Shown here: positions 1-40,387 of the stretch, piece after piece
How the letters are laid out: each line of letters begins with the position of its first letter
Numbering within the stretch: the first letter of the stretch is position 1
Program-made: the position numbers and the translations under genes
The notes under the pieces: generated by a model
The model's input: the letters and a program-made list of their open reading frames with translations, nothing else
Told to the model about the DNA's origin: nothing
Databases searched by the model: none
Sequence record: MH464253
Source of the DNA: Shigella phage SFPH2
Direction: 5' to 3' (one strand)
Length of the DNA: 40,387 nt

Positions 1-909
1 GCGACCTTTAGCCCAGTACCCACCACCAACCACCCCGGTCCACGGCTTAGGTGGCACGACGCAGGGCTGGTAAACTGGGGCAATTCCTGCCAGAGAGAAA
101 CCACGCTGAGCCATCTTCTTGACCCAGAAGTCAGACAGGTGGACCATCTCAACGTCTGCCGCAGCGTTGCCTGCACCGTAGCGCTTAAGCTCGACCAGTT
201 GTGAGGACTGGATGACCAGCTCAAGCATCTTGATGCCTACGTGAACAGCCTCGGTCGGACTCCAAGTCCCCCACGCGTCAGCCAGTTGTCCCTGCTCAAG
301 CATAGACGCCTCGACTGCCTGCATGTAGGCCTTCTTGTAGCTTGCGCCAGCGCGTTTCTTCAGGTTCTCCGCGATGGTCTTCTTGAAGTGCTCCTGCTCC
401 TGCTCACGGATGCGACCAAAGCGGATTTCATCTTCCAGTGTGCGACCTATCGCGGATGCCATAGGAGTTATCGGAATGCCTTCAGGCTTGACCAGCTTGC
501 TGAGGATGACTTTCAGTATGATGACCGCAGCAGACTCCGCAGAGATTAGCAGAGAGCGGTCTTTGACAGCCTTCTCGTCAGTGCTCATCATGGTAAACGC
601 CACGCTTGGACGTGAGGTCGAGGACTTACCGTCCGGGCCTTCATGCCACTCACGCACAGCCTTAGCGATGGTCGGAACCAGTGTTTGCATCAGAGGTTTA
701 GCGACCTGATTGTCTGCCAGCTCCCCGCGCTCGGTCTGACGCTCAAGGTTCTTAATGAAACGTCGCTCACCTTCAGTGTATGCCTCATGCTCTAGCTGGA
801 GCTGTTTGACTGCGAGGTCTTGCCCGTAGTGGTCAGCCAGTACGTTGAAAGGTTCGATTGCATTCGACACATCAGAGAAGTCGTGTTTGTCAATTGAGAT
901 GACGCTCAT
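1..909 (-). CDS. gp1: DNA-directed RNA polymerase, N-terminal part (gene cut by window boundary; continues at 40387..38615)
   Basis: ATG at 909..907 with AAGGA 9 nt upstream; translation MSVISIDKHDFSD...FGRIREQEQEHFKK...PCVVPPKPWTGVVGGGYWAKGR is colinear with T7 RNAP N-terminus; frame runs off position 1 with a complete codon. Confidence 0.93.
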   Translation of the reverse strand, partial: MSVISIDKHDFSDVSNAIEPFNVLADHYGQDLAVKQLQLEHEAYTEGERRFIKNLERQTERGELADNQVAKPLMQTLVPTIAKAVREWHEGPDGKSSTSRPSVAFTMMSTDEKAVKDRSLLISAESAAVIILKVILSKLVKPEGIPITPMASAIGRTLEDEIRFGRIREQEQEHFKKTIAENLKKRAGASYKKAYMQAVEASMLEQGQLADAWGTWSPTEAVHVGIKMLELVIQSSQLVELKRYGAGNAAADVEMVHLSDFWVKKMAQRGFSLAGIAPVYQPCVVPPKPWTGVVGGGYWAKGR

Positions 910-2940: not shown

Positions 2941-3060
2941 CCCGCCTGTCAGCGTTATGGTTAGCGCATGGTGGTTAGCCGTGTAGCAGGCCCCGCGCTT
3001 CATCAGCTCGACGAGACCATCATAGAACGCCTGCTCGCTGCTGTAGCTTATCGTGTACAT
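2935..3060 (-). CDS. Small hypothetical ORF (41 aa)
   Basis: ATG overlapping upstream stop (TGATG); MYTISYSSEQAFYDGLVELMKRGACYTANHHALTITLTGGY; below track length cutoff. Confidence 0.3.
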   Translation of the reverse strand: MYTISYSSEQAFYDGLVELMKRGACYTANHHALTITLTGGY

Positions 3061-3263
3061 CAGTAGAACCTCCTTGCGTACTTGAGGAAAGCGCCATCAC
3101 GCAGAATCTCCCAGTCTCCCCAGCTCAGGCTATAGCTATGCGGAAGTTTGAACTCCTTGTTAACGTGTATGCTTGACCGTATGGTCACAAACTTGGAGTC
3201 GCCCACGGTCTCAATATCAACCGTTATCCACGGCTTGATGTGATTAGGGTATGAGTTAATCAT
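3060..3263 (-). CDS. Hypothetical early protein (67 aa, 0.4 position)
   Basis: ATG at 3263 (MINSYPNH) directly after SAMase stop with GGGAGGTGG SD; track start at 3296 lies inside SAMase. Confidence 0.5.
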   Translation of the reverse strand: MINSYPNHIKPWITVDIETVGDSKFVTIRSSIHVNKEFKLPHSYSLSWGDWEILRDGAFLKYARRFY

Positions 3264-3264
3264 C

Positions 3265-3717
3265 TTACACCACCTCCCAGAACCGACCTTCAGCATCTTT
3301 CGTGAAGCATTCGCCCTTTGGTGCCTCGACTTGCTGGAATGCCCCGTTCAGACGTGTGGTCTTGTAGCCATCCAGACCTTTGCAGAACATCAGGCCAGCC
3401 GTGTGAGTCTGAGACTTGTAGACCATCACGCAGTCTTGCTCAAAGTCATTGCAGGCCAGCCGCGCAACGTTGATAGCCTGAGCTTTGGACTCACAGCGCA
3501 CACGATATGTTCTCTCCTCAGTGGCGACCTCTTGCCCTTCCTCGCGGTAGCATCCTGTAAGCCCAGTGCATTCGAGCACACCGTAGTAGTCTGGCTCAGC
3601 TTGTAGCAGTGCCTTAAGGTCTAACTGACGGCCCATGTTCACTATGTCTGACAGTCCAGCACGAGCGGCTGACACGAGCACATAGAAGACGTTAGCTGGT
3701 TCGTTAGTGTAAATCAT
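3265..3717 (-). CDS. gp0.3: S-adenosyl-L-methionine hydrolase/lyase (T3 gene 0.3-type SAMase, anti-restriction)
   Basis: MIYTNEPANVFYVLVSA...TGCYRE...VRC.SKAQAINVARLACN..EQDCVMVYKSQTHTAGL matches T3 SAMase as recalled, near-identical length (150 aa). Confidence 0.88.
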   Translation of the reverse strand: MIYTNEPANVFYVLVSAARAGLSDIVNMGRQLDLKALLQAEPDYYGVLECTGLTGCYREEGQEVATEERTYRVRCESKAQAINVARLACNDFEQDCVMVYKSQTHTAGLMFCKGLDGYKTTRLNGAFQQVEAPKGECFTKDAEGRFWEVV

Positions 3718-3961: not shown

Positions 3962-4076
3962 CTACTTTCTTTCTGTCGGTTGCCTGTTTTTCGTATGTCT
4001 TACAGGCTGACTACTTAACCGGACCGACCCGGCGTCTTCACTATCCGGTTGTTGCCGTGTCGTGTTGACGGAAGCT

Positions 4077-22436: not shown

Positions 22437-23318
22437 TTACAGACTAGACGCTGCAACCTTAGCGCGTACCTCCATTGTGTACTTCGCGTCACGCAGGTAG
22501 CGTGGGTCACTCATTGCCTTGACCATATCAGCCTTGGAGCTGAAACCTTCGGTCTGGACCTTCGGCGTAGAAACCGCTGGCTTACCTTGAGTAGTCAGTG
22601 TACGCTGAGGTGCAACGCCACGGGTCTTACCGAGGTTACGACCAGCCAGATTCAGGATGGCCTTAGCGGTCGCAAGGTCCTTACGGATGATTGCAGACTC
22701 AAGGGCTTCCTTGGTTGACTTATCGTTCGCCTCAAGGTGTGACAGGATGCGGTTAAACTGCTCAGCCCCACCAGCGTAGCGAACCACACCAGCAGCGTAC
22801 TGCTCAGCCAGAGCTTCCTGACCACGGACGAATGAATCGACGAAACGCTTTGTGTAACCAGCTTCAGCCAGCTTAGCATAGGATGCCTCGGACAGCTCAC
22901 CTTTAGAGGCGTATTCGGCCTTAATAGCGGTGATGTCATCAGCAGTGACCTTGCCAGCCTCTACAGCAGCAGAAACCATGTCGTCGAAGGCAGCTTCGTT
23001 CTCGTTCAGAGCGGTGACACTTTCGGTCAGCTCTTTAGGAGTTTCACCCAGTTCGACAAACTCTTGGTCATCACCTTCGGTATCAGACTCATCGTCGTTA
23101 CCTTCGGTATCATCACCTTCAGTCTCTTCGACGTTATCGTCTTCTTCGGTAGCCTCTTCGTTCTCGGCTTCCAGTTGCTTGAAGGTAATAGCATCATCGC
23201 CATCGCGAACTGCTACGTCCTGTTCGAGCATAGACCGCTGGTGTTCGTTCAGGTCCTCAACGGAGCCAGTGATTGCATTAGGGCTAACGCCGAACTCGGC
23301 ATAAACTGATTGGGACAT
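22437..23318 (-). CDS. gp9: Capsid assembly scaffold protein
   Basis: 293 aa acidic protein; FGV...RDGDDAI, SYAKLAE.GYTK.F.DS..RGQEAL.EQY, KAMSDPRY match T7 gp9. Confidence 0.93.
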   Translation of the reverse strand: MSQSVYAEFGVSPNAITGSVEDLNEHQRSMLEQDVAVRDGDDAITFKQLEAENEEATEEDDNVEETEGDDTEGNDDESDTEGDDQEFVELGETPKELTESVTALNENEAAFDDMVSAAVEAGKVTADDITAIKAEYASKGELSEASYAKLAEAGYTKRFVDSFVRGQEALAEQYAAGVVRYAGGAEQFNRILSHLEANDKSTKEALESAIIRKDLATAKAILNLAGRNLGKTRGVAPQRTLTTQGKPAVSTPKVQTEGFSSKADMVKAMSDPRYLRDAKYTMEVRAKVAASSL

Positions 23319-26369: not shown

Positions 26370-27239
26370 CTACATGGAGGGTGTCCACAGAATGACCTCC
26401 TTGGACTTAGGGTCGTAGTCAGATGCCCGACAGATGCGAGCGACCTGAGCTTGGACCAGTAGTTCCTGTTCGGTCATCCCGGCTTTAGCAGCCAGAGTCA
26501 CCATGCAGTCCCACAACGTCTGGTCTTCGCGCTTCGGATACTTCTTCCACTCTACCTTGAGCTGACCTTTGTTCTTACCAGTCTTCAGCTCGCGGGTCTC
26601 TTGCACGAAGTAGTACGGCTCGTCAAGGAAAGCACGGGTAGTGTCCTCACCGTACCCCGGAATACCGCCGTAACCATCCGTCATGTCACCCTTGATGGTC
26701 TGCTCCATGTGCCAGTAATCTGCCTCGGCAGTCGTGTGGCTCAGGATTTCACCAGTGGTTAACCAGAAGAACTCACAGTTCGGGATAGTCTTGAAGTCCT
26801 TATCACAGGACACCAGCACCGCATGGTCGCAGCCCACAATCTGAGGGCGCGTACCAATGATTCCCATACAGTCATCTCCCTCAAGCGTTGGCTTCAGGAA
26901 GCTGTTGAACCGTGGGTCAGCCATCACTTCAGCTACGAACTTCTTGTATCCTACAGGCTTTCGAGAACCTTTACGGTTGGCCTTATAGGTGGGAAGTACG
27001 TCCTTGCGCCAGTTGGCGTCATCGGTGAAGCACATCACAATCTTAGCGTCTTTCCACGCCTTGCGCTTCTTGACGATTTCAGCGATGGTGTTCTCAAGGA
27101 TACGACGGGCTTTCTCGTGGTCGCAGATAAGGGTCCAGATGTCGTCGCCCCAGTCAGTCTCATCTTCAGCCGCAGCCATAGAGGAGAAGACAAGATAGTC
27201 GCCATCAAGCACCAGAGCTATCTTCTTCTCAGAACCCAT
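26370..27239 (-). CDS. gp6: 5'-3' exonuclease
   Basis: 289 aa; DGD.LVF...CDH.KAR.ILE, NWRK...YKANRK..KPVGY, LEGDD.MG.I, SCDKDFKTIPNC.F.W.TTG, KGD.TDGY.GI.G, TLWDC...AKAGMTE match T7 gp6. Confidence 0.95.
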   Translation of the reverse strand: MGSEKKIALVLDGDYLVFSSMAAAEDETDWGDDIWTLICDHEKARRILENTIAEIVKKRKAWKDAKIVMCFTDDANWRKDVLPTYKANRKGSRKPVGYKKFVAEVMADPRFNSFLKPTLEGDDCMGIIGTRPQIVGCDHAVLVSCDKDFKTIPNCEFFWLTTGEILSHTTAEADYWHMEQTIKGDMTDGYGGIPGYGEDTTRAFLDEPYYFVQETRELKTGKNKGQLKVEWKKYPKREDQTLWDCMVTLAAKAGMTEQELLVQAQVARICRASDYDPKSKEVILWTPSM

Positions 27240-27678
27240 CGTCCAGACCTCCCGTAGCCATAGTGACCGTAGCTGGCATCAAGGAAACTTTAGGCTCCTC
27301 AATACGTTCCAGAGTTACCTCAGGCTTCAGCCATTTGTTGGCGAACTCATGGGCCATGTCATTGTCCTCTGAGTTGAGGTGTGACATCAGGCTCCAGAAG
27401 TTTGAAGACATCTCGGTCTCCTTCTCAACCGGGCGATATACGCCCCAGTCATTTACCTCTGAGCCGTAGCTGTCGCCCCACATACCACTGGCTACGATGG
27501 TCAGGCCGATGAACGGACGCCACTCGTAAGCCTCAGAGGGAGACTCGGCGTATGACTCAACGTCCTTCTCGGTCAGGGTGTATGACCAAGATGCGTAGAA
27601 CTCAGCGTACTTTCGGTGCTCCTTCTCGCACTCGCCCATTTCAAGGACCAGCTCTTTCAGACTTTCAGGTATCTTCAT
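27229..27678 (-). CDS. Acidic, aromatic-rich hypothetical protein (149 aa) at the gp5.9 locus
   Basis: ATG at 27678 in ATGA overlap with gp5.7 stop, GGAGG SD; about 29 Asp/Glu vs 13 Lys/Arg, many Trp/Tyr; track start at 27732 lies inside gp5.7. Confidence 0.6.
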   Translation of the reverse strand: MKIPESLKELVLEMGECEKEHRKYAEFYASWSYTLTEKDVESYAESPSEAYEWRPFIGLTIVASGMWGDSYGSEVNDWGVYRPVEKETEMSSNFWSLMSHLNSEDNDMAHEFANKWLKPEVTLERIEEPKVSLMPATVTMATGGLDDGF

Positions 27679-27884
27679 AGACAGCCTCCGTGTTGATTCA
27701 GGAACTTGGTGCCAGCAGCGGTAATCTCCCACGCACCGTTGTTACGCCCATCCATAGACAGGCAGCTTAGATGTCCACGACTCGCAGCCTCAGCCACAAG
27801 TGCAGCGTTGTTGCGCACATAGTTGGACTGAAAGGTCTTCGGGCAGGACTTAAGGGCCGCTAGGACCCGTAAGTATTCACTCAT
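27675..27884 (-). CDS. gp5.7: gp5.7 protein
   Basis: 69 aa; MSEYLRVLAALKSCPKTFQSNYVRNNAALVAEAASRGH.SCL...GRN.GAWEITA.GT.FL...GGC near-identical to T7 gp5.7. Confidence 0.92.
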   Translation of the reverse strand: MSEYLRVLAALKSCPKTFQSNYVRNNAALVAEAASRGHLSCLSMDGRNNGAWEITAAGTKFLNQHGGCL

Positions 27885-28165
27885 TGCTTGACCTCGAATC
27901 GCAGGTTGGATACTCCGAACTGGTCATCACCAAAGGCGTCTACCAGCTCTTCCTTGACGGTCTTCTTGACGGCAATTTCAAGGGCAGACTCAGGACCTGA
28001 CTCGATTGCTGTTTTGACCAGAGCCAACTGAAGTCCATCCAGCTTCTCACCCTCAGCATAGGCTTTAGTCATCTCAGCAAGCTGACGACACCTTGTCTCT
28101 TCTTCCTTTGAGCTAACAACCATCTTCAGGTCAAAACTCACACGAATACGTTTAGTAATAGCCAT
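27881..28165 (-). CDS. gp5.5-position protein (94 aa)
   Basis: Synteny and size similar to T7 gp5.5 (H-NS-binding protein); sequence only weakly recalled. Confidence 0.55.
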   Translation of the reverse strand: MAITKRIRVSFDLKMVVSSKEEETRCRQLAEMTKAYAEGEKLDGLQLALVKTAIESGPESALEIAVKKTVKEELVDAFGDDQFGVSNLRFEVKQ

Positions 28166-28170
28166 TAGTG

Positions 28171-28653
28171 TTACTCCTGTTTAAATTGTCCGTACTTCTT
28201 GTCAGACGTTAAGTTTATACACATAGAGGTCTTGACTCTAACCTCTTCAGTGAACGGTATAAGCCAGAGGCAATCCTGATAAACAACCGCTAGTAGGTCG
28301 ATGTCTCCCGGACTGTAAGTTGGCTTACCGCATCCTCCCAGCCTTACCTGTATGCTATTACAGTTCTTCAGCTTCGTTCCGGTCTTGACCTGAACCCTAG
28401 TAAGGGTCCCGTCTATATCGACCACCAAGTCTGCCTTTGACTGCGTGAATGCTGGGAGGAATACTTGATGCCCTTTGGCTGTCAGCCTATAGCTTACATA
28501 TAGCTCACTAGCAGCACCAGTGAAGTGCTGGGACTTTCCGTCAATGGCATTCTTTCCACGTTGGTCCAATCTTACCCTCCGTATCAAGTTCACACTTGAA
28601 GTTATAGAAGCGTCCGACCTCACGCATAGCCTCTTGAGCAATACGGACGACAT
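28171..28653 (-). CDS. Hypothetical protein overlapping DNA polymerase 3' end (160 aa); possible PD-(D/E)xK-like motif
   Basis: Only ATG (28653, SD AGGAGA) lies 113 nt inside gene 5 in another frame; SELYV...ADLVVDIDG...VQVK spacing resembles E..D..(E/Q)xK nuclease core. Confidence 0.45.
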   Translation of the reverse strand: MSSVLLKRLCVRSDASITSSVNLIRRVRLDQRGKNAIDGKSQHFTGAASELYVSYRLTAKGHQVFLPAFTQSKADLVVDIDGTLTRVQVKTGTKLKNCNSIQVRLGGCGKPTYSPGDIDLLAVVYQDCLWLIPFTEEVRVKTSMCINLTSDKKYGQFKQE

Positions 28654-31360: not shown

Positions 31361-33067
<1,707 letters not shown>

Positions 33068-34483: not shown

Positions 34484-35182
34484 TTAGAAGTCGTAATCGC
34501 CACCGGACTCAGAGTCATCACCACCCTCGGCATCTTCACCGAAGTCGTCAGACCCGAAGTCACCGTCAGTAGACGCTTTGTAGCCACCGGAGCCGATGTC
34601 TTCATCGTCACCCCAGCCACCATCGCCACCAGTGCCATCGCCGGACCACTCTTTCAGTTCGACCAGCAGGCAGGACTCCAGTTGCAGCTTCACGCTAGCA
34701 CCAGTCGCAGCGTTCCACTTGAACGGCAGGACTTTGAACTTGACCTTCAGCTTAGACCCTGAGCCAATATTCGGGACGTCACGGATGAGTTTAGCATCGG
34801 TGTCGTAGAACCGTAATACGATAGGCTCGGACTTGCCGTCTTTCAAGTAGGACGCAAAGCATTTGAACTTCAGGGTAACAGTGCCGTCACCGTTCTCAAT
34901 CCACGGCATGTCGCCTTCACGTGGTTCGATAGGCTTCTTGCCACGCTGAACCTGAGGCGGGTTCTTCTCGTGGTCTGCGAGTGCTTTTGCATACGCATCG
35001 TCGTGAATCTTCTGCAAGACATCAATCATCTTGCGGACCTTCGGGTCGCTCAGGTCGAATGTCAGGTTGACTTTATGCTCACCGCGCTCGTTGTACTTGG
35101 TGTCTGCTTTGTTAAGCCATGCGTAAGGCTCAACGATACCAGCTACCGGAGTGGTGAAAGTCTTCAGTTGCTCTTTAGCCAT
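34484..35182 (-). CDS. gp2.5: Single-stranded DNA-binding protein
   Basis: 232 aa (same as T7 gp2.5); EPYA, ANPP.V.RGKKP..P.EGDMP...NGDGT.T.KFKC.AS, IGSGSKLKVK..L.P.KWN...GASVKLQLES..LVEL, acidic C-tail ending DF. Confidence 0.96.
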   Translation of the reverse strand: MAKEQLKTFTTPVAGIVEPYAWLNKADTKYNERGEHKVNLTFDLSDPKVRKMIDVLQKIHDDAYAKALADHEKNPPQVQRGKKPIEPREGDMPWIENGDGTVTLKFKCFASYLKDGKSEPIVLRFYDTDAKLIRDVPNIGSGSKLKVKFKVLPFKWNAATGASVKLQLESCLLVELKEWSGDGTGGDGGWGDDEDIGSGGYKASTDGDFGSDDFGEDAEGGDDSESGGDYDF

Positions 35183-38614: not shown

Positions 38615-40387
38615 TTAGGCGAATGCAAAGTCAGATAGCAGAATGTCTTCGATGTTCAGTTTACCGCGCTTCGGCAGCTCAGGCAATTTGTCGCGCTGGC
38701 TCTCATGAAGCTGGTCCTCGAACTGCTCGTAGAAGTCTTGCAGAACATCGTTGTCTCGGTAGGTCTCGACCATCGTCTCACGGACTCCCTTGAACAGGAA
38801 CTCAGCGTCTGCCGGGATGGTCCCAAAGCTGTCGTGAATCACCGCGAAGGACATCACGCCATACTTGCGGTGGGTATGGACTACAGTCTTCCTCAGGTGA
38901 CTGCCATCCTGTGAGTGTACAAAGTTAGGGCTGATACCGGACTCCTGCTTGTGCTTGTCCAGCTCTTTCTTCGACCCTTTGTTGACTGTCGGTTGCAGGT
39001 TGAACGACCCAAGGAACAGGAGGTTCAGCCGTGTGGTGTCTTTCTTGCGGTATTCCTGCCAGACCGGGAACCCATCAGGTGTTACCCAGTGTACCGGAAG
39101 GCAAGGCTTCAGGATTTCGCCAGTCTTCTTGTCCTTCACTTCAGCAGCCAGTAGCTTGGCAGCGCCTTGAAGCCACTTCATCGCGTCAACCGCAGCAACT
39201 ACGGTCACACTCACGGCGTCCCATATCATCTTAGCCATGAAGCGAGACGCTTGGCTTGGGTCGGTGAACATTGCGCCTTTACCGCTGTCAATCGCTGGCA
39301 TCACGGTGTCCTCAAACACTTGGTCCGCGAACCCGTATTCTTTCGACCCGTAGGCCAGAGTCATGACCGAGCGTTTAGTGACCGAGCGTGACATCCCGTA
39401 GGTCAGCCACTGTCGAGCCAGCTCACGGGTCCCAAGGACCAGACGCTCAGTAATCTCGCCTGTCTTCTTGTCCTCAAAGGTCTTCATTTCGTTGTCGCTC
39501 CCGTTGACCAGCAGTTCCTTGAGCTGTTCTTCCACCCGGTCGGACACAATGCGGTAGATGTCTTGGACCTTCCCGCTTGGCGTCAGGTTTACCGCATGTC
39601 CACCAACGTGGTCACGGAGCATAGCGCTGAAGTGCTGAATCCCGGAGCAGGACCCATCGAACGCGATAGGCAGTGAGCAGGAGTAACTCAGCCCGTGGTG
39701 CATGACTCCAGCATACTCAAAGCAGAACGCTAGGAAGCAGAACGGAGAGTCTAACCGGCCCCACCAATCAATGCTGTCCATCGGATTCTTTGCTGCTGAG
39801 AGGATGTTGTCGTGGTTGTCTTCGACCCACTTGATGCGCTCCTCAAAGGTGACTTTATCGACACCCGCGCAGTTTGCACCATGTACCTTCAGCCATTTGA
39901 AGCCGTCCGCACCGATTGGTTTACCGACCGCCAGAGTCAGCAGGCCCTTCTGCATATCGTTGCCTTGAGGGTTGAACATCGGGACAGCGTACACTCGGCC
40001 CCGCCAGTCCATGTTGTACGGGAACCAGATGGCCTTAAACTGAGAGAACTTGTTAGCCTGTGAGACGATGAAGCTCAGGGACAAGCGGCGCGACTGTCGG
40101 GCCTTCTCGCGTCGATAGATGCCAGCCGCAGACTTCTTCCAAGCCTTAAGCTCCTCCTCGGTCTCACCCGCATAGTCTTCAGGCTTCAGTGGCTCCATCT
40201 GAGGGATGTCAGCGATAGGCGTGTTATTCAGCTTCTCGACCATGTTCACCACTTCCAGCACCTTCTTGTTTACCTTCCAAGGAGTCTGCTGAATGATGTT
40301 CACTGCCTCTACCACTTCAGGCATGTACACGTCTTCGTAGCGCTGGACCGCAGCCTTAGACCCTAAGCGAATCAGTGGTAGAGGTCT
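38615..40387 (-). CDS. gp1: DNA-directed RNA polymerase, C-terminal part (continuation of 909..1 across the circular junction)
   Basis: Frame open to window edge; ...RYEDVYMPEV, FPYNMDWRGRVYAV.MFNPQGNDM.KGLLTLA, SPFCFLAFCFEYAGV.HHGLSY, GIQHFSAMLRD, SVMTLAYGSKE, HDSFGT, ends DFAFA as T7 RNAP. Confidence 0.97.
   Translation of the reverse strand, partial: RPLPLIRLGSKAAVQRYEDVYMPEVVEAVNIIQQTPWKVNKKVLEVVNMVEKLNNTPIADIPQMEPLKPEDYAGETEEELKAWKKSAAGIYRREKARQSRRLSLSFIVSQANKFSQFKAIWFPYNMDWRGRVYAVPMFNPQGNDMQKGLLTLAVGKPIGADGFKWLKVHGANCAGVDKVTFEERIKWVEDNHDNILSAAKNPMDSIDWWGRLDSPFCFLAFCFEYAGVMHHGLSYSCSLPIAFDGSCSGIQHFSAMLRDHVGGHAVNLTPSGKVQDIYRIVSDRVEEQLKELLVNGSDNEMKTFEDKKTGEITERLVLGTRELARQWLTYGMSRSVTKRSVMTLAYGSKEYGFADQVFEDTVMPAIDSGKGAMFTDPSQASRFMAKMIWDAVSVTVVAAVDAMKWLQGAAKLLAAEVKDKKTGEILKPCLPVHWVTPDGFPVWQEYRKKDTTRLNLLFLGSFNLQPTVNKGSKKELDKHKQESGISPNFVHSQDGSHLRKTVVHTHRKYGVMSFAVIHDSFGTIPADAEFLFKGVRETMVETYRDNDVLQDFYEQFEDQLHESQRDKLPELPKRGKLNIEDILLSDFAFA

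What the first reader, a model, noticed from the sequence alone, without database searches (positions are those of the whole stretch)
27229..27678. Strongly acidic, Trp/Tyr-rich 149-aa protein at the gp5.9 locus: candidate DNA-mimic anti-defence protein
The protein between gp5.7 and the exonuclease has about 29 acidic versus 13 basic residues and many aromatics. T7 encodes the small acidic RecBCD inhibitor gp5.9 at this position and the acidic DNA mimic Ocr elsewhere; this larger acidic protein may play an analogous role against RecBCD or restriction/BREX-type systems, especially as this phage has a SAMase rather than an Ocr at gene 0.3.
Basis: inference. Interest (0 to 1): 0.6.

Follow-up and report, generated by a model that had tools for sequence, protein, structure and literature searches.

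The report
Acidic orphan protein in gp5.9 slot
A real, dispensable phage gene sits where phage T7 keeps its RecBCD inhibitor and encodes a strongly acidic protein from an uncharacterised, phage-only family, which makes it a reasonable but unproven candidate host-enzyme inhibitor.

Summary
On the minus strand, 27229-27678 encodes a 149-aa protein with 29 acidic and 13 basic residues, pI 4.45 and 6 Trp. It is the most acidic protein per residue in this phage, which appears to be Shigella phage SFPH2, a Kayfunavirus. The gene is translationally coupled to gene 5.7 and to the gene 6 exonuclease.

The protein belongs to PHROG 4382, of unknown function. It has no Pfam or PDB sequence match. Its confident AlphaFold model is mixed alpha/beta and matches no solved fold, including Ocr, gp5.9, Gam, ArdA and Ugi. 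Acidity is conserved across 106 relatives.

The gene is accessory. K1F has nothing at this site, and the site is hypervariable. Four of the five other proteins examined there, including T7 gp5.9, are strongly acidic. This phage has no recognisable RecBCD inhibitor elsewhere. Short relatives in unrelated phages lie next to the same type of exonuclease.

An acidic host-enzyme inhibitor, with RecBCD the leading target, is the best reading. The evidence is only circumstantial, and DNA mimicry is untested. The protein's charge density is lower than that of T7 gp5.9 and the Berlinvirus-type gp5.9. The SAMase argument is weak, because T3 carries a gp5.9 98% identical to T7's.

The parts
27229..27678 (-). 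Coding sequence of the 149-aa acidic protein (called X here), corresponding to HOT79_gp30 of Shigella phage SFPH2. It is a member of PHROG 4382.
   Evidence: ORF and translation; phrog_4382 E 5e-48; a 149-aa cluster member named SFPH2 gp30 on a 40387-bp contig.
27685..27689 (-). GGAGG ribosome-binding site 6 nt upstream of the ATG. It lies inside the end of gene 5.7.
   Evidence: Upstream sequence printed.
27415..27678 (-). Residues 1-88, the conserved core of the family: one helix, a beta hairpin carrying E-H-R-K-Y-x-x-F-Y, two helices, and a second hairpin carrying G-x-W-x-D-x-x-G-x-E.
   Evidence: AlphaFold2 model, pLDDT about 90 in this part; the only part shared by all 51 representative clusters.
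27331..27414 (-). Residues 89-116, a helix-loop-helix module (FWSLMSHLNSEDNDMAHEF). It is present in only part of the family and is shared with an unrelated protein family found at the same slot (phrog_6163).
   Evidence: phrog_6163 hit at residues 90-115, E 4e-4; BLASTP to Hafnia phage yong1 slot protein, 50% over 26 aa, E 6e-6; a circularly permuted relative, P0093, has the module at its N terminus.
27232..27288 (-). Residues 131-149, a disordered tail (PATVTMATGGLDDGF). Its last codons are dictated by the overlapping ribosome-binding site and start codon of gene 6.
   Evidence: pLDDT below 50; junction sequence GGGAGGTCTGGACGATGGGTTCTGA; tail absent from the Klebsiella-phage and Mooglevirus homologues.
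27229..27239 (-). 11-nt overlap between the end of X and the start of the gene 6 exonuclease, indicating translational coupling.
27675..27884 (-). Upstream neighbour: gp5.7-like gene. Its stop overlaps the start of X as ATGA.
   Evidence: phrog_1334 E 7e-39; coordinates.
26370..27239 (-). Downstream neighbour: gene 6-type 5'-3' exonuclease.
   Evidence: phrog_107 E 2e-79 and PF02739.

Best explanation
X is a dispensable, horizontally exchanged accessory protein of the class II (DNA-metabolism) gene block. It is made together with gp5.7 and the gene 6 exonuclease.

I think it most likely acts stoichiometrically. It would use its negatively charged surface to bind and block the nucleic-acid-binding site of a host DNA-processing enzyme. 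RecBCD is the leading candidate target, so X would be a functional analogue of T7 gp5.9 but not a relative of it.

Shown here:
- The gene is real.
- Acidity is conserved across the family.
- The gene is accessory.
- It occupies the gp5.9 slot.
- The phage lacks any recognisable RecBCD inhibitor.
- The family recurs next to gp6-type exonucleases.
- The predicted fold matches nothing known.

Inferred only:
- That X binds a host protein.
- That binding works by nucleic-acid mimicry.
- That the target is RecBCD. I put that last step alone at roughly 0.15-0.2.
For: (1) Slot equivalence. T7 and T3 encode gp5.9 between 5.7 and 6, overlapping gene 6. X has the same placement and overlaps.

(2) The slot behaves as an accessory hot spot. 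In a spread sample of Kayfunavirus-like records the insert between the flanks is 8, about 225-235, about 270, 333 or 450 nt, and K1F has none. Six unrelated or mosaic protein types occupy the slot. Five of them are strongly acidic:
- T7 gp5.9, pI 4.08
- Berlinvirus-type gp5.9, pI 4.05
- phrog_6163, pI 4.06
- phrog_18166, pI 4.33
- X, pI 4.45

(3) A chain of shared modules links X to gp5.9. X residues 87-112 match the yong1 slot protein (E 6e-6). The yong1 protein weakly matches PHROGs annotated as RecBCD inhibitor and the C-terminal half of Berlinvirus-type gp5.9 (E about 1e-3 and 0.013). The N-terminal half of Berlinvirus-type gp5.9 matches T7 gp5.9 (E 5e-8).

(4) Acidity is conserved. All but one of 106 family members have pI 4.1-5.0 and net charge -7 to -20, although identity falls to about 20%.

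(5) No gp5.9, phrog_6234 or phrog_4790 homologue exists elsewhere in the window. Homologues of other T7-type host-takeover genes are present: 0.7 kinase, 1.2 dGTPase inhibitor, gp2 RNA polymerase inhibitor, 5.5 and 5.7.

(6) In an unrelated lineage of about 90-kb environmental phages, a short form of X lies immediately downstream of a phrog_107 exonuclease in 15 of 26 loci where X was located. In other lineages it lies 0.9-3.6 kb from one. From my own knowledge, known RecBCD inhibitors are typically encoded beside the phage's own recombination nuclease: lambda gam-bet-exo, P22 abc2-erf, T7 5.9-6.

(7) No strictly invariant catalytic-looking residue set exists. His21 is replaced by Phe in a quarter of members. 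That favours a binding protein over an enzyme.

(8) All cultured hosts are Enterobacterales, which encode RecBCD.
Against: - Net charge per residue (-0.107) is lower than T7 gp5.9 (-0.154) and the Berlinvirus-type gp5.9 (-0.169). It barely exceeds the next most acidic ORF in the phage, which I read as the scaffold protein.
- The fold is a compact alpha/beta domain, not an elongated helical rod.
- The most conserved position is basic (Lys/Arg23, 100%).
- Position in a hot spot says a gene is accessory, not what it targets. One slot occupant, SH4 gp26, is not acidic.
- The link in the module chain that reaches gp5.9 is weak. The PHROG label 'RecBCD inhibitor' may itself have been assigned by position.
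- In Mooglevirus and Suspvirus the homologue sits between nrdD and nrdG, with no exonuclease nearby.
- K1F does without any gene at this site.
Confidence: 0.35

Rival explanations
1. X is an auxiliary subunit or regulator of the phage's own DNA machinery. It would bind the gene 6 exonuclease or the DNA polymerase, for example to modulate end resection or recombination, and would not target a host protein.
For: - X is tightly coupled to gene 6 by an 11-nt overlap.
- Adjacency to a phrog_107 exonuclease is kept in two distant lineages with the gene order reversed. In T7-like phages X is upstream of the exonuclease. In the about 90-kb environmental phages the exonuclease is immediately upstream of X in 15 of 26 loci. 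In three further lineages the two lie within 0.9-3.6 kb.
- The disordered tail ends in DDGF. This resembles the acidic, Phe-terminated tails of this phage's gp2.5 (DYDF) and gp4 (DQDF). In T7 those tails dock on the DNA polymerase (my own knowledge).
Against: - Close relatives with about 90% identical gene 6 and 5.7 flanks lack X or carry unrelated genes in its place. The exonuclease therefore does not need it.
- The tail is missing from most of the family. Its last residues are forced by the gene 6 start codon in another frame.
- The Mooglevirus copies are not near an exonuclease.
- Proximity may only reflect the clustering of replication genes.
Confidence: 0.15
2. X inhibits a different host system through its acidic surface: restriction-modification, BREX, MukBEF, or another DNA-binding defence or nucleoid protein. 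RecBCD would not be the target.
For: - The same charge and accessory-slot evidence applies.
- gp5.9 itself also inhibits MukBEF (title and abstract of PMC7617805, listed).
- DNA-mimic anti-defence proteins are reported to act broadly (bioRxiv 10.1101/2025.06.06.658234).
- The phage's only recognisable anti-restriction function is a SAM lyase.
Against: - X is a middle (class II) gene, so it is expressed too late to protect entering DNA from restriction. Ocr and SAMase are the first genes expressed.
- No similarity to Ocr, ArdA or Arn folds was found.
Confidence: 0.15
3. X binds a small molecule, for example as a sponge for an immune signalling nucleotide, or it is a small enzyme.
For: - X is rich in Trp and Tyr.
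- Conserved positions include Lys/Arg23, His21, Trp67, Asp69 and Glu74, which sit on two neighbouring hairpins.
Against: - No fold match to any solved structure was found, and none of the listed hits was a nucleotide sponge or a small enzyme of that kind. Tad1, Tad2 and Acb2 were not looked for individually.
- His21 and Trp67 are each replaced in about a quarter of members.
- There is no Pfam, NCBIfam or PADLOC match.
Confidence: 0.08

Closest known systems
T7/T3 gp5.9 (PHROG 9014), RecBCD and MukBEF inhibitor
   Same: Same genomic slot between 5.7 and 6, with the same overlap onto gene 6. Small, acidic, non-essential and a class II gene. There is a weak, indirect link through shared modules via phrog_6163 and Berlinvirus-type gp5.9.
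   Different: No detectable homology. X is 149 aa against 52 aa. It is predicted to be an alpha/beta domain, whereas gp5.9 is a parallel coiled-coil dimer (PMC9836394). pI is 4.45 against 4.0-4.1, and charge density is lower.
phrog_6163 slot proteins (e.g. the Hafnia phage yong1 78-aa protein; some copies are annotated 'putative host recBCD nuclease inhibitor')
   Same: They share the LMSHLNxEDxxMAxEF helix-loop-helix module. They occupy the same slot in other Kayfunavirus, Pectobacterium and Klebsiella phages, and also occur in Ounavirinae phages. They are very acidic.
   Different: They lack the PHROG 4382 core. Their function is also untested, and the annotation appears to be transferred rather than demonstrated.
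Ocr (T7 gp0.3) and other DNA mimics (ArdA, Gam, Ugi)
   Same: Small acidic phage proteins with no enzymatic motifs.
PHROG 4382 (unknown function)
   Same: X is a full-length member (E 5e-48). Family members occur in Kayfunavirus, Przondovirus, Eapunavirus, Jarilovirus, Mooglevirus, Suspvirus-type phages (phiSUSP1, SUSP2), Proteus phages and uncultured phages.
   Different: Nothing is known about the family. X is the longest form: core, then helical module, then a tail.

Membership tests
PHROG 4382 | Full-length match to the family profile | tested here: met
   E 5.3e-48, residues 1-130 against profile positions 6-129 of 130.
T7 gp5.9 family (PHROG 9014) | Sequence homology to gp5.9 | tested here: not met
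   No phrog_9014 hit for X. tblastn of T7 gp5.9 against the whole window gave a best E of 0.38.
T7 gp5.9 family (PHROG 9014) | Parallel coiled-coil dimer of about 50 residues | tested here: not met
   The model is a 130-residue alpha/beta domain with five strands. The gp5.9 architecture is taken from PMC9836394. Oligomeric state of X was not tested.
T7 gp5.9 family (PHROG 9014) | Gene located between 5.7 and 6 and overlapping gene 6 | tested here: met
T7 gp5.9 family (PHROG 9014) | Binds RecBCD and blocks DNA binding | not testable with these tools
   Needs biochemistry or co-folding with RecBCD. RecBCD sequences could not be submitted to the structure tool.
DNA-mimic proteins (functional class) | Strongly negative net charge, pI about 4 | tested here: inconclusive
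   pI 4.45 and -0.107 charge per residue. X is the most acidic protein in the phage and acidity is conserved family-wide. It is still weaker than T7 gp5.9 (-0.154) and the Berlinvirus-type gp5.9 (-0.169).
DNA-mimic proteins (functional class) | Surface carboxylates arranged like DNA phosphates | not testable with these tools
Conserved acidic positions are 13, 16, 20, 38, 52, 69, 74, 77 and 90.
Ocr / ArdA / Gam / Ugi folds | Structural similarity to a solved mimic | tested here: not met
Nucleotide-signal sponges (Tad1, Tad2, Acb2) | Structural or sequence similarity | tested here: inconclusive
   The general searches returned no significant hit of any kind: PDB fold searches, PDB sequence and profile searches and Pfam. 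These families were not queried individually.
phrog_6163 family | Full-length match | tested here: not met
   Only residues 90-115 match profile positions 3-28 of 84 (E 3.8e-4). This is a shared module, not membership.

The most novel reading that the evidence does not exclude
PHROG 4382 is a new structural class of phage inhibitor of RecBCD, or more broadly of DNA-end-processing and DNA-binding host complexes. It would belong to a guild of unrelated or mosaic acidic proteins that replace one another at the 5.7|6 slot of T7-like phages. In other phage families it travels next to gp6/FEN-type exonucleases, as gam travels with exo and bet in lambda.
Probability: 0.2. Interest if true: 0.6.

Novelty: new variant of a known kind. 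Interest (0 to 1): 0.45.

Why it matters
If X blocks RecBCD or another DNA-binding defence hub, it would add a structurally new family to the few known RecBCD inhibitors (Gam, gp5.9, Abc2). It would also explain how the many T7-like phages of Shigella, Salmonella, Escherichia and Klebsiella that lack gp5.9 protect their linear DNA.

The 5.7|6 junction would then be marked as a compact counter-defence hot spot that can be mined. At least five alternative families sit there, all but T7 gp5.9 untested.

There is a practical side. These phages are candidates for therapy, and RecBCD inhibitors are known triggers of retron-type abortive infection. Which slot allele a phage carries could therefore affect its host range.

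If the rival reading is right and X partners the exonuclease, the result would bear on T7-type recombination instead.

Tried and rejected
Searches that found nothing useful:
- Pfam, NCBIfam and PADLOC scans of X gave nothing significant.
- PDB sequence searches with the single protein and with a 35-sequence profile gave nothing.
- BFVD returned only family members. The AFDB library was unavailable.
- An HMMER search of 1.84 billion representative proteins found 51 small single-domain proteins and no annotated relative.
- Source names for cluster members are almost all 'hypothetical'. The few others are stray labels: tail tube, baseplate hub, DNA methylase, Rho-GAP.
- Literature searches found no study of this family. 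The searches covered gp5.9 and DNA mimics, Kayfunavirus with anti-defence, the phrog id, the SFPH2 genome paper, two accessory-gene screens and the EVADES catalogue. The last three included supplement searches for sequence motifs or accessions.
- The scan of bacterial genomes could not be run because the alignments lacked a conserved enough stretch. Absence from bacterial chromosomes therefore rests only on the cluster sources.

Ideas considered and set aside:
- A polymerase-docking role for the tail ending in DDGF. The tail is not conserved, and the gene 6 start dictates it.
- An enzyme. No invariant catalytic set exists.
- The longer GTG start at 27732. Homologues and the ribosome-binding site support the ATG at 27678.
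- Submitting fusion constructs (X-X or X-gp6) to the structure tool.
Full report
**The object.**
The window is a T7-type phage genome read on the minus strand and circularly permuted. The RNA polymerase gene runs across the window ends. A 149-aa cluster member named hypothetical protein HOT79_gp30 of Shigella phage SFPH2 sits on a contig of exactly 40387 bp. The DNA is 90-95% identical to many Kayfunavirus genomes. I therefore take the window to be SFPH2 or a near-identical phage.

The finding's ORF is on the minus strand at 27229..27678. Its ATG has a GGAGG 6 nt upstream and overlaps the stop of the gp5.7-like gene as ATGA. Its last 11 nt overlap the start of the gene 6 exonuclease. It is the most acidic of 46 minus-strand ORFs per residue, just ahead of the 293-aa ORF at 22437..23318, which I read as the scaffold protein. 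It is among the three richest in Trp.

**What it is by homology.**
X matches PHROG 4382 (unknown function) over its whole ordered length (E 5e-48). Residues 90-115 also match the start of phrog_6163. There is no Pfam, NCBIfam or PADLOC match. There is no PDB sequence match, either with the single protein or with a family profile.

Relatives fall into several groups:
- Kayfunavirus: 85-95% identity.
- Klebsiella/Enterobacter Przondovirus and Eapunavirus: 127 aa, about 44% identity.
- Jarilovirus: 139 aa.
- The myovirus genus Mooglevirus and Suspvirus-type phages (phiSUSP1, SUSP2): 130-132 aa, about 30% identity.
- Proteus phages: 141 aa.

An exhaustive HMMER search of 1.84 billion representative proteins found only 51 clusters. 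All are single-domain proteins of 68-163 aa. Source names are almost all 'hypothetical protein', with a few stray labels such as tail tube protein.

**Structure.**
With a 35-sequence alignment, AlphaFold2 gives mean pLDDT 80, and about 90 over residues 1-120. The elements in order are: helix 5-14, strands 16-21 and 26-34, helices 37-43 and 47-56, strands 60-68 and 72-86, helices 89-100 and 107-116, strand 120-125. Residues 131-149 are disordered.

**Family anatomy.**
A 57-sequence alignment shows a core (residues 1-88) shared by all members. In most members this core is followed by one or two strands (...VPE..IPAH..W..). A subfamily that includes X has a helix-loop-helix module (LMSHLNSEDNDMAHEF) inserted before the last strand. 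One relative, P0093, carries that module at the N terminus instead.

Conserved positions:
- Lys/Arg23: 100%.
- Gly72: 98%.
- Asp/Glu74: 95%.
- Gly65: 89%.
- Acidic residues at 13, 16 and 20: 82-86%.
- His21, Ser25, Phe27 and Trp67: about 75% each.

His21 is Phe in a quarter of members, so there is no invariant catalytic-looking set. Acidity is conserved. Across 106 members, all but one fragment have pI 4.1-5.0 and net charge -7 to -20, with a mean of -0.106 per residue.

The C-terminal tail of X is not conserved. Its sequence encodes the ribosome-binding site and start codon of gene 6 in another frame. I treat it as a by-product of the junction. I note that it ends in DDGF, much as this phage's gp2.5 ends in DYDF and gp4 in DQDF.

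**Genomic context: the slot.**
T7 carries gene 5.9 between 5.7 and 6, overlapping gene 6. gp5.9 homologues occur only in T7-, T3- and Yersinia-phage-type genomes. The window has none anywhere; the best tblastn E is 0.38. A PHROG scan of 20 other small ORFs found no RecBCD-inhibitor family. It did find the 0.7 kinase, the 1.2 dGTPase inhibitor and the gp2 RNA polymerase inhibitor.

K1F, the type Kayfunavirus, has no gene between 5.7 and 6. I built an artificial 'empty site' query by joining the end of 5.7 to the start of gene 6. With it, 257 records matched at 80% identity or more. In a spread sample the distance between the flanks implied inserts of 8, 223-234, 267-276, 333 or 450 nt. About 54 records carry X itself, roughly a fifth.

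The alternative occupants I examined are:
- a 91-aa phrog_2251 protein (SH4);
- a 110-aa phrog_18166 protein (ST34);
- a 78-aa phrog_6163 protein (Hafnia phage yong1);
- a 59-aa protein annotated gp5.9 in the Berlinvirus Yep-phi.

Counting X and T7 gp5.9, that makes six occupant types. Five of the six are strongly acidic, pI 4.05-4.45. The exception is SH4 gp26 at pI 5.4.

The occupants are partly mosaic:
- X residues 87-112 match yong1 residues 3-28 (50% identity, E 6e-6).
- The C-terminal part of the yong1 protein weakly matches two PHROGs labelled 'host RecBCD nuclease inhibitor' and the C-terminal half of Berlinvirus-type gp5.9 (E about 1e-3 and 0.013).
- The N-terminal half of Berlinvirus-type gp5.9 is clearly related to T7 gp5.9 (E 5e-8).

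Only T7 gp5.9 has been tested experimentally. The PHROG labels may have been assigned from gene position.

**Genomic context: other lineages.**
In Mooglevirus and the Suspvirus-type contig the homologue lies between nrdD and nrdG. In a Proteus phage it follows a family A DNA polymerase and a macro-domain gene. There, a 5'-3' exonuclease lies 3.6 kb downstream.

A scan of IMG/VR returned 36 loci. Many come from a lineage of uncultured phages of about 85-105 kb. In that lineage a 112-113-aa short form lies immediately downstream of, and overlapping, a 313-370-aa protein. This arrangement holds in 15 of the 26 loci where X could be located. The upstream protein matches phrog_107, the same exonuclease PHROG as the window's gp6, at E 3e-36. 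An HNH endonuclease gene follows X.

In three further lineages the same exonuclease type lies 0.9-1.4 kb away. So X tends to travel with a gp6/FEN-type exonuclease, and in two lineages the two genes are adjacent in opposite order. This could reflect a functional link. It could equally reflect the compactness of replication modules.

All cultured hosts are Enterobacterales. One Staphylococcus record and one Enterococcus record are exceptions; the matching Enterococcus phage EFA-1 protein entry is flagged UNVERIFIED_ORG.

**Interpretation.**
The evidence establishes a real, conserved, phage-only, dispensable and horizontally mobile small acidic protein. It is expressed with the DNA-metabolism genes and sits at a site where acidic proteins, including the one proven RecBCD inhibitor, replace one another. 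The phage has no other recognisable RecBCD inhibitor.

Acidity is conserved far beyond sequence, and no invariant catalytic-looking residue set was found. Both points favour a stoichiometric binding protein whose negative surface matters. By analogy with gam-exo-bet, abc2-erf and 5.9-6 (my own knowledge), the association with phage exonucleases fits a protein that deals with DNA ends.

My best explanation is therefore an acidic inhibitor of a host nucleic-acid-processing enzyme, with RecBCD as the first candidate. I give the general statement about 0.35 and the RecBCD target about 0.15-0.2.

**Weaknesses.**
- Nothing links the fold to any known mimic.
- The charge density is moderate.
- The best-conserved residue is basic.
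- Position in a hot spot does not identify a target.
- One link in the module chain is weak.
- The Mooglevirus context differs from the others.

**Rivals.**
- A partner of the phage exonuclease or replisome: 0.15.
- An inhibitor of another DNA-binding host system: 0.15.
- A small-molecule binder or enzyme: 0.08.

The positional analogy and the charge argument hold up. The SAMase argument does not carry weight, because T3 carries a gp5.9 98% identical to T7's and is the classic SAMase phage (my own knowledge). As a class II gene, X would also be made too late to protect entering DNA from restriction in the way Ocr does.

**Novelty and score.**
The protein family is already present, unannotated, in many deposited genomes. 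I found no functional study of it in the literature available to me. If the proposed role is right, it would be a structurally new variant of a known kind of phage counter-measure. It is a sensible, cheaply testable candidate and not a surprise. Interest: 0.45.

Noticed in passing
window 1-905 and 38615-40387 (minus strand): The T7-type RNA polymerase gene is split by the window ends. The N-terminal part reads from about 905 down to 1 and continues in frame from 40387 down to 38615. The record is therefore circularly permuted, with its junction inside gene 1. The '571-aa GTG ORF' in the ORF list is an artefact of this split.
   Followed up: partly
window 27229-27884, compared with L005, L010-L013: The junction between gene 5.7 and gene 6 is a hypervariable accessory slot in Kayfunavirus and its relatives. 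It can be empty (K1F, CR44b) or hold one of at least five different small genes. Most of these are very acidic and some share short modules with each other. All except T7 gp5.9 are uncharacterised.
   Followed up: yes
window 28171-28653 (minus strand): A PD-(D/E)XK endonuclease-like ORF (PF11645, E 1e-10; phrog_5018) lies between the DNA polymerase gene and gene 5.5, and its 5' end overlaps the polymerase gene. Its DNA is missing from many otherwise close relatives, whose matches stop at about query position 1879. K1F instead has an HNH endonuclease inside gene 5. It looks like a free-standing homing endonuclease.
   Followed up: no
window 34484-35182, 31361-33064 and 27232-27250 (minus strand): The gp2.5-like single-stranded DNA-binding protein ends in ...GGDYDF. 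The gp4-like primase-helicase ends in ...WEDQDF. X ends in ...GGLDDGF. All three have acidic tails ending in Phe. For X, the last residues are dictated by the overlapping gene 6 start.
   Followed up: partly
L021-L047 (IMG/VR contigs of about 85-105 kb), around position 4000 of each locus: An uncultured phage lineage has a T7-like replication module: a gp2.5-like binding protein with an acidic tail ending in F, and a phrog_107 exonuclease. It carries a 112-113-aa short form of X directly after the exonuclease, followed by an HNH endonuclease gene.
   Followed up: partly
P0093 (L051, a 733-bp metagenome contig): This is a 163-aa relative in which the LMSHLNSEEN.MAEEF helix-loop-helix module sits at the N terminus, ahead of the core. 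That is a circular permutation relative to X and suggests the module is an independent unit.
   Followed up: no
window 3265-3717 and 3060-3296 (minus strand): A SAM lyase gene (PF23780) is followed by an overlapping DUF7300 gene (PF23974, phrog_4445) at the start of the early region. An HTH protein (2516-2863) and a 0.7-type protein kinase (1689-2423) follow.
   Followed up: no
window 27675-28165 (minus strand): The gp5.5-like and gp5.7-like ORFs both match phrog_17900, a 170-aa family that spans both. This is consistent with a 5.5-5.7 fusion product, as annotated for T7.
   Followed up: no
L011 (Salmonella phage ST34) 507-839, with relatives: The 110-aa acidic slot protein of ST34-type phages (phrog_18166) is called gp5.8 in Erwinia phage L1. 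In some Klebsiella phages it is annotated 'ribonucleotide reductase', probably an annotation artefact carried over from a weak match to phrog_2294.
   Followed up: no
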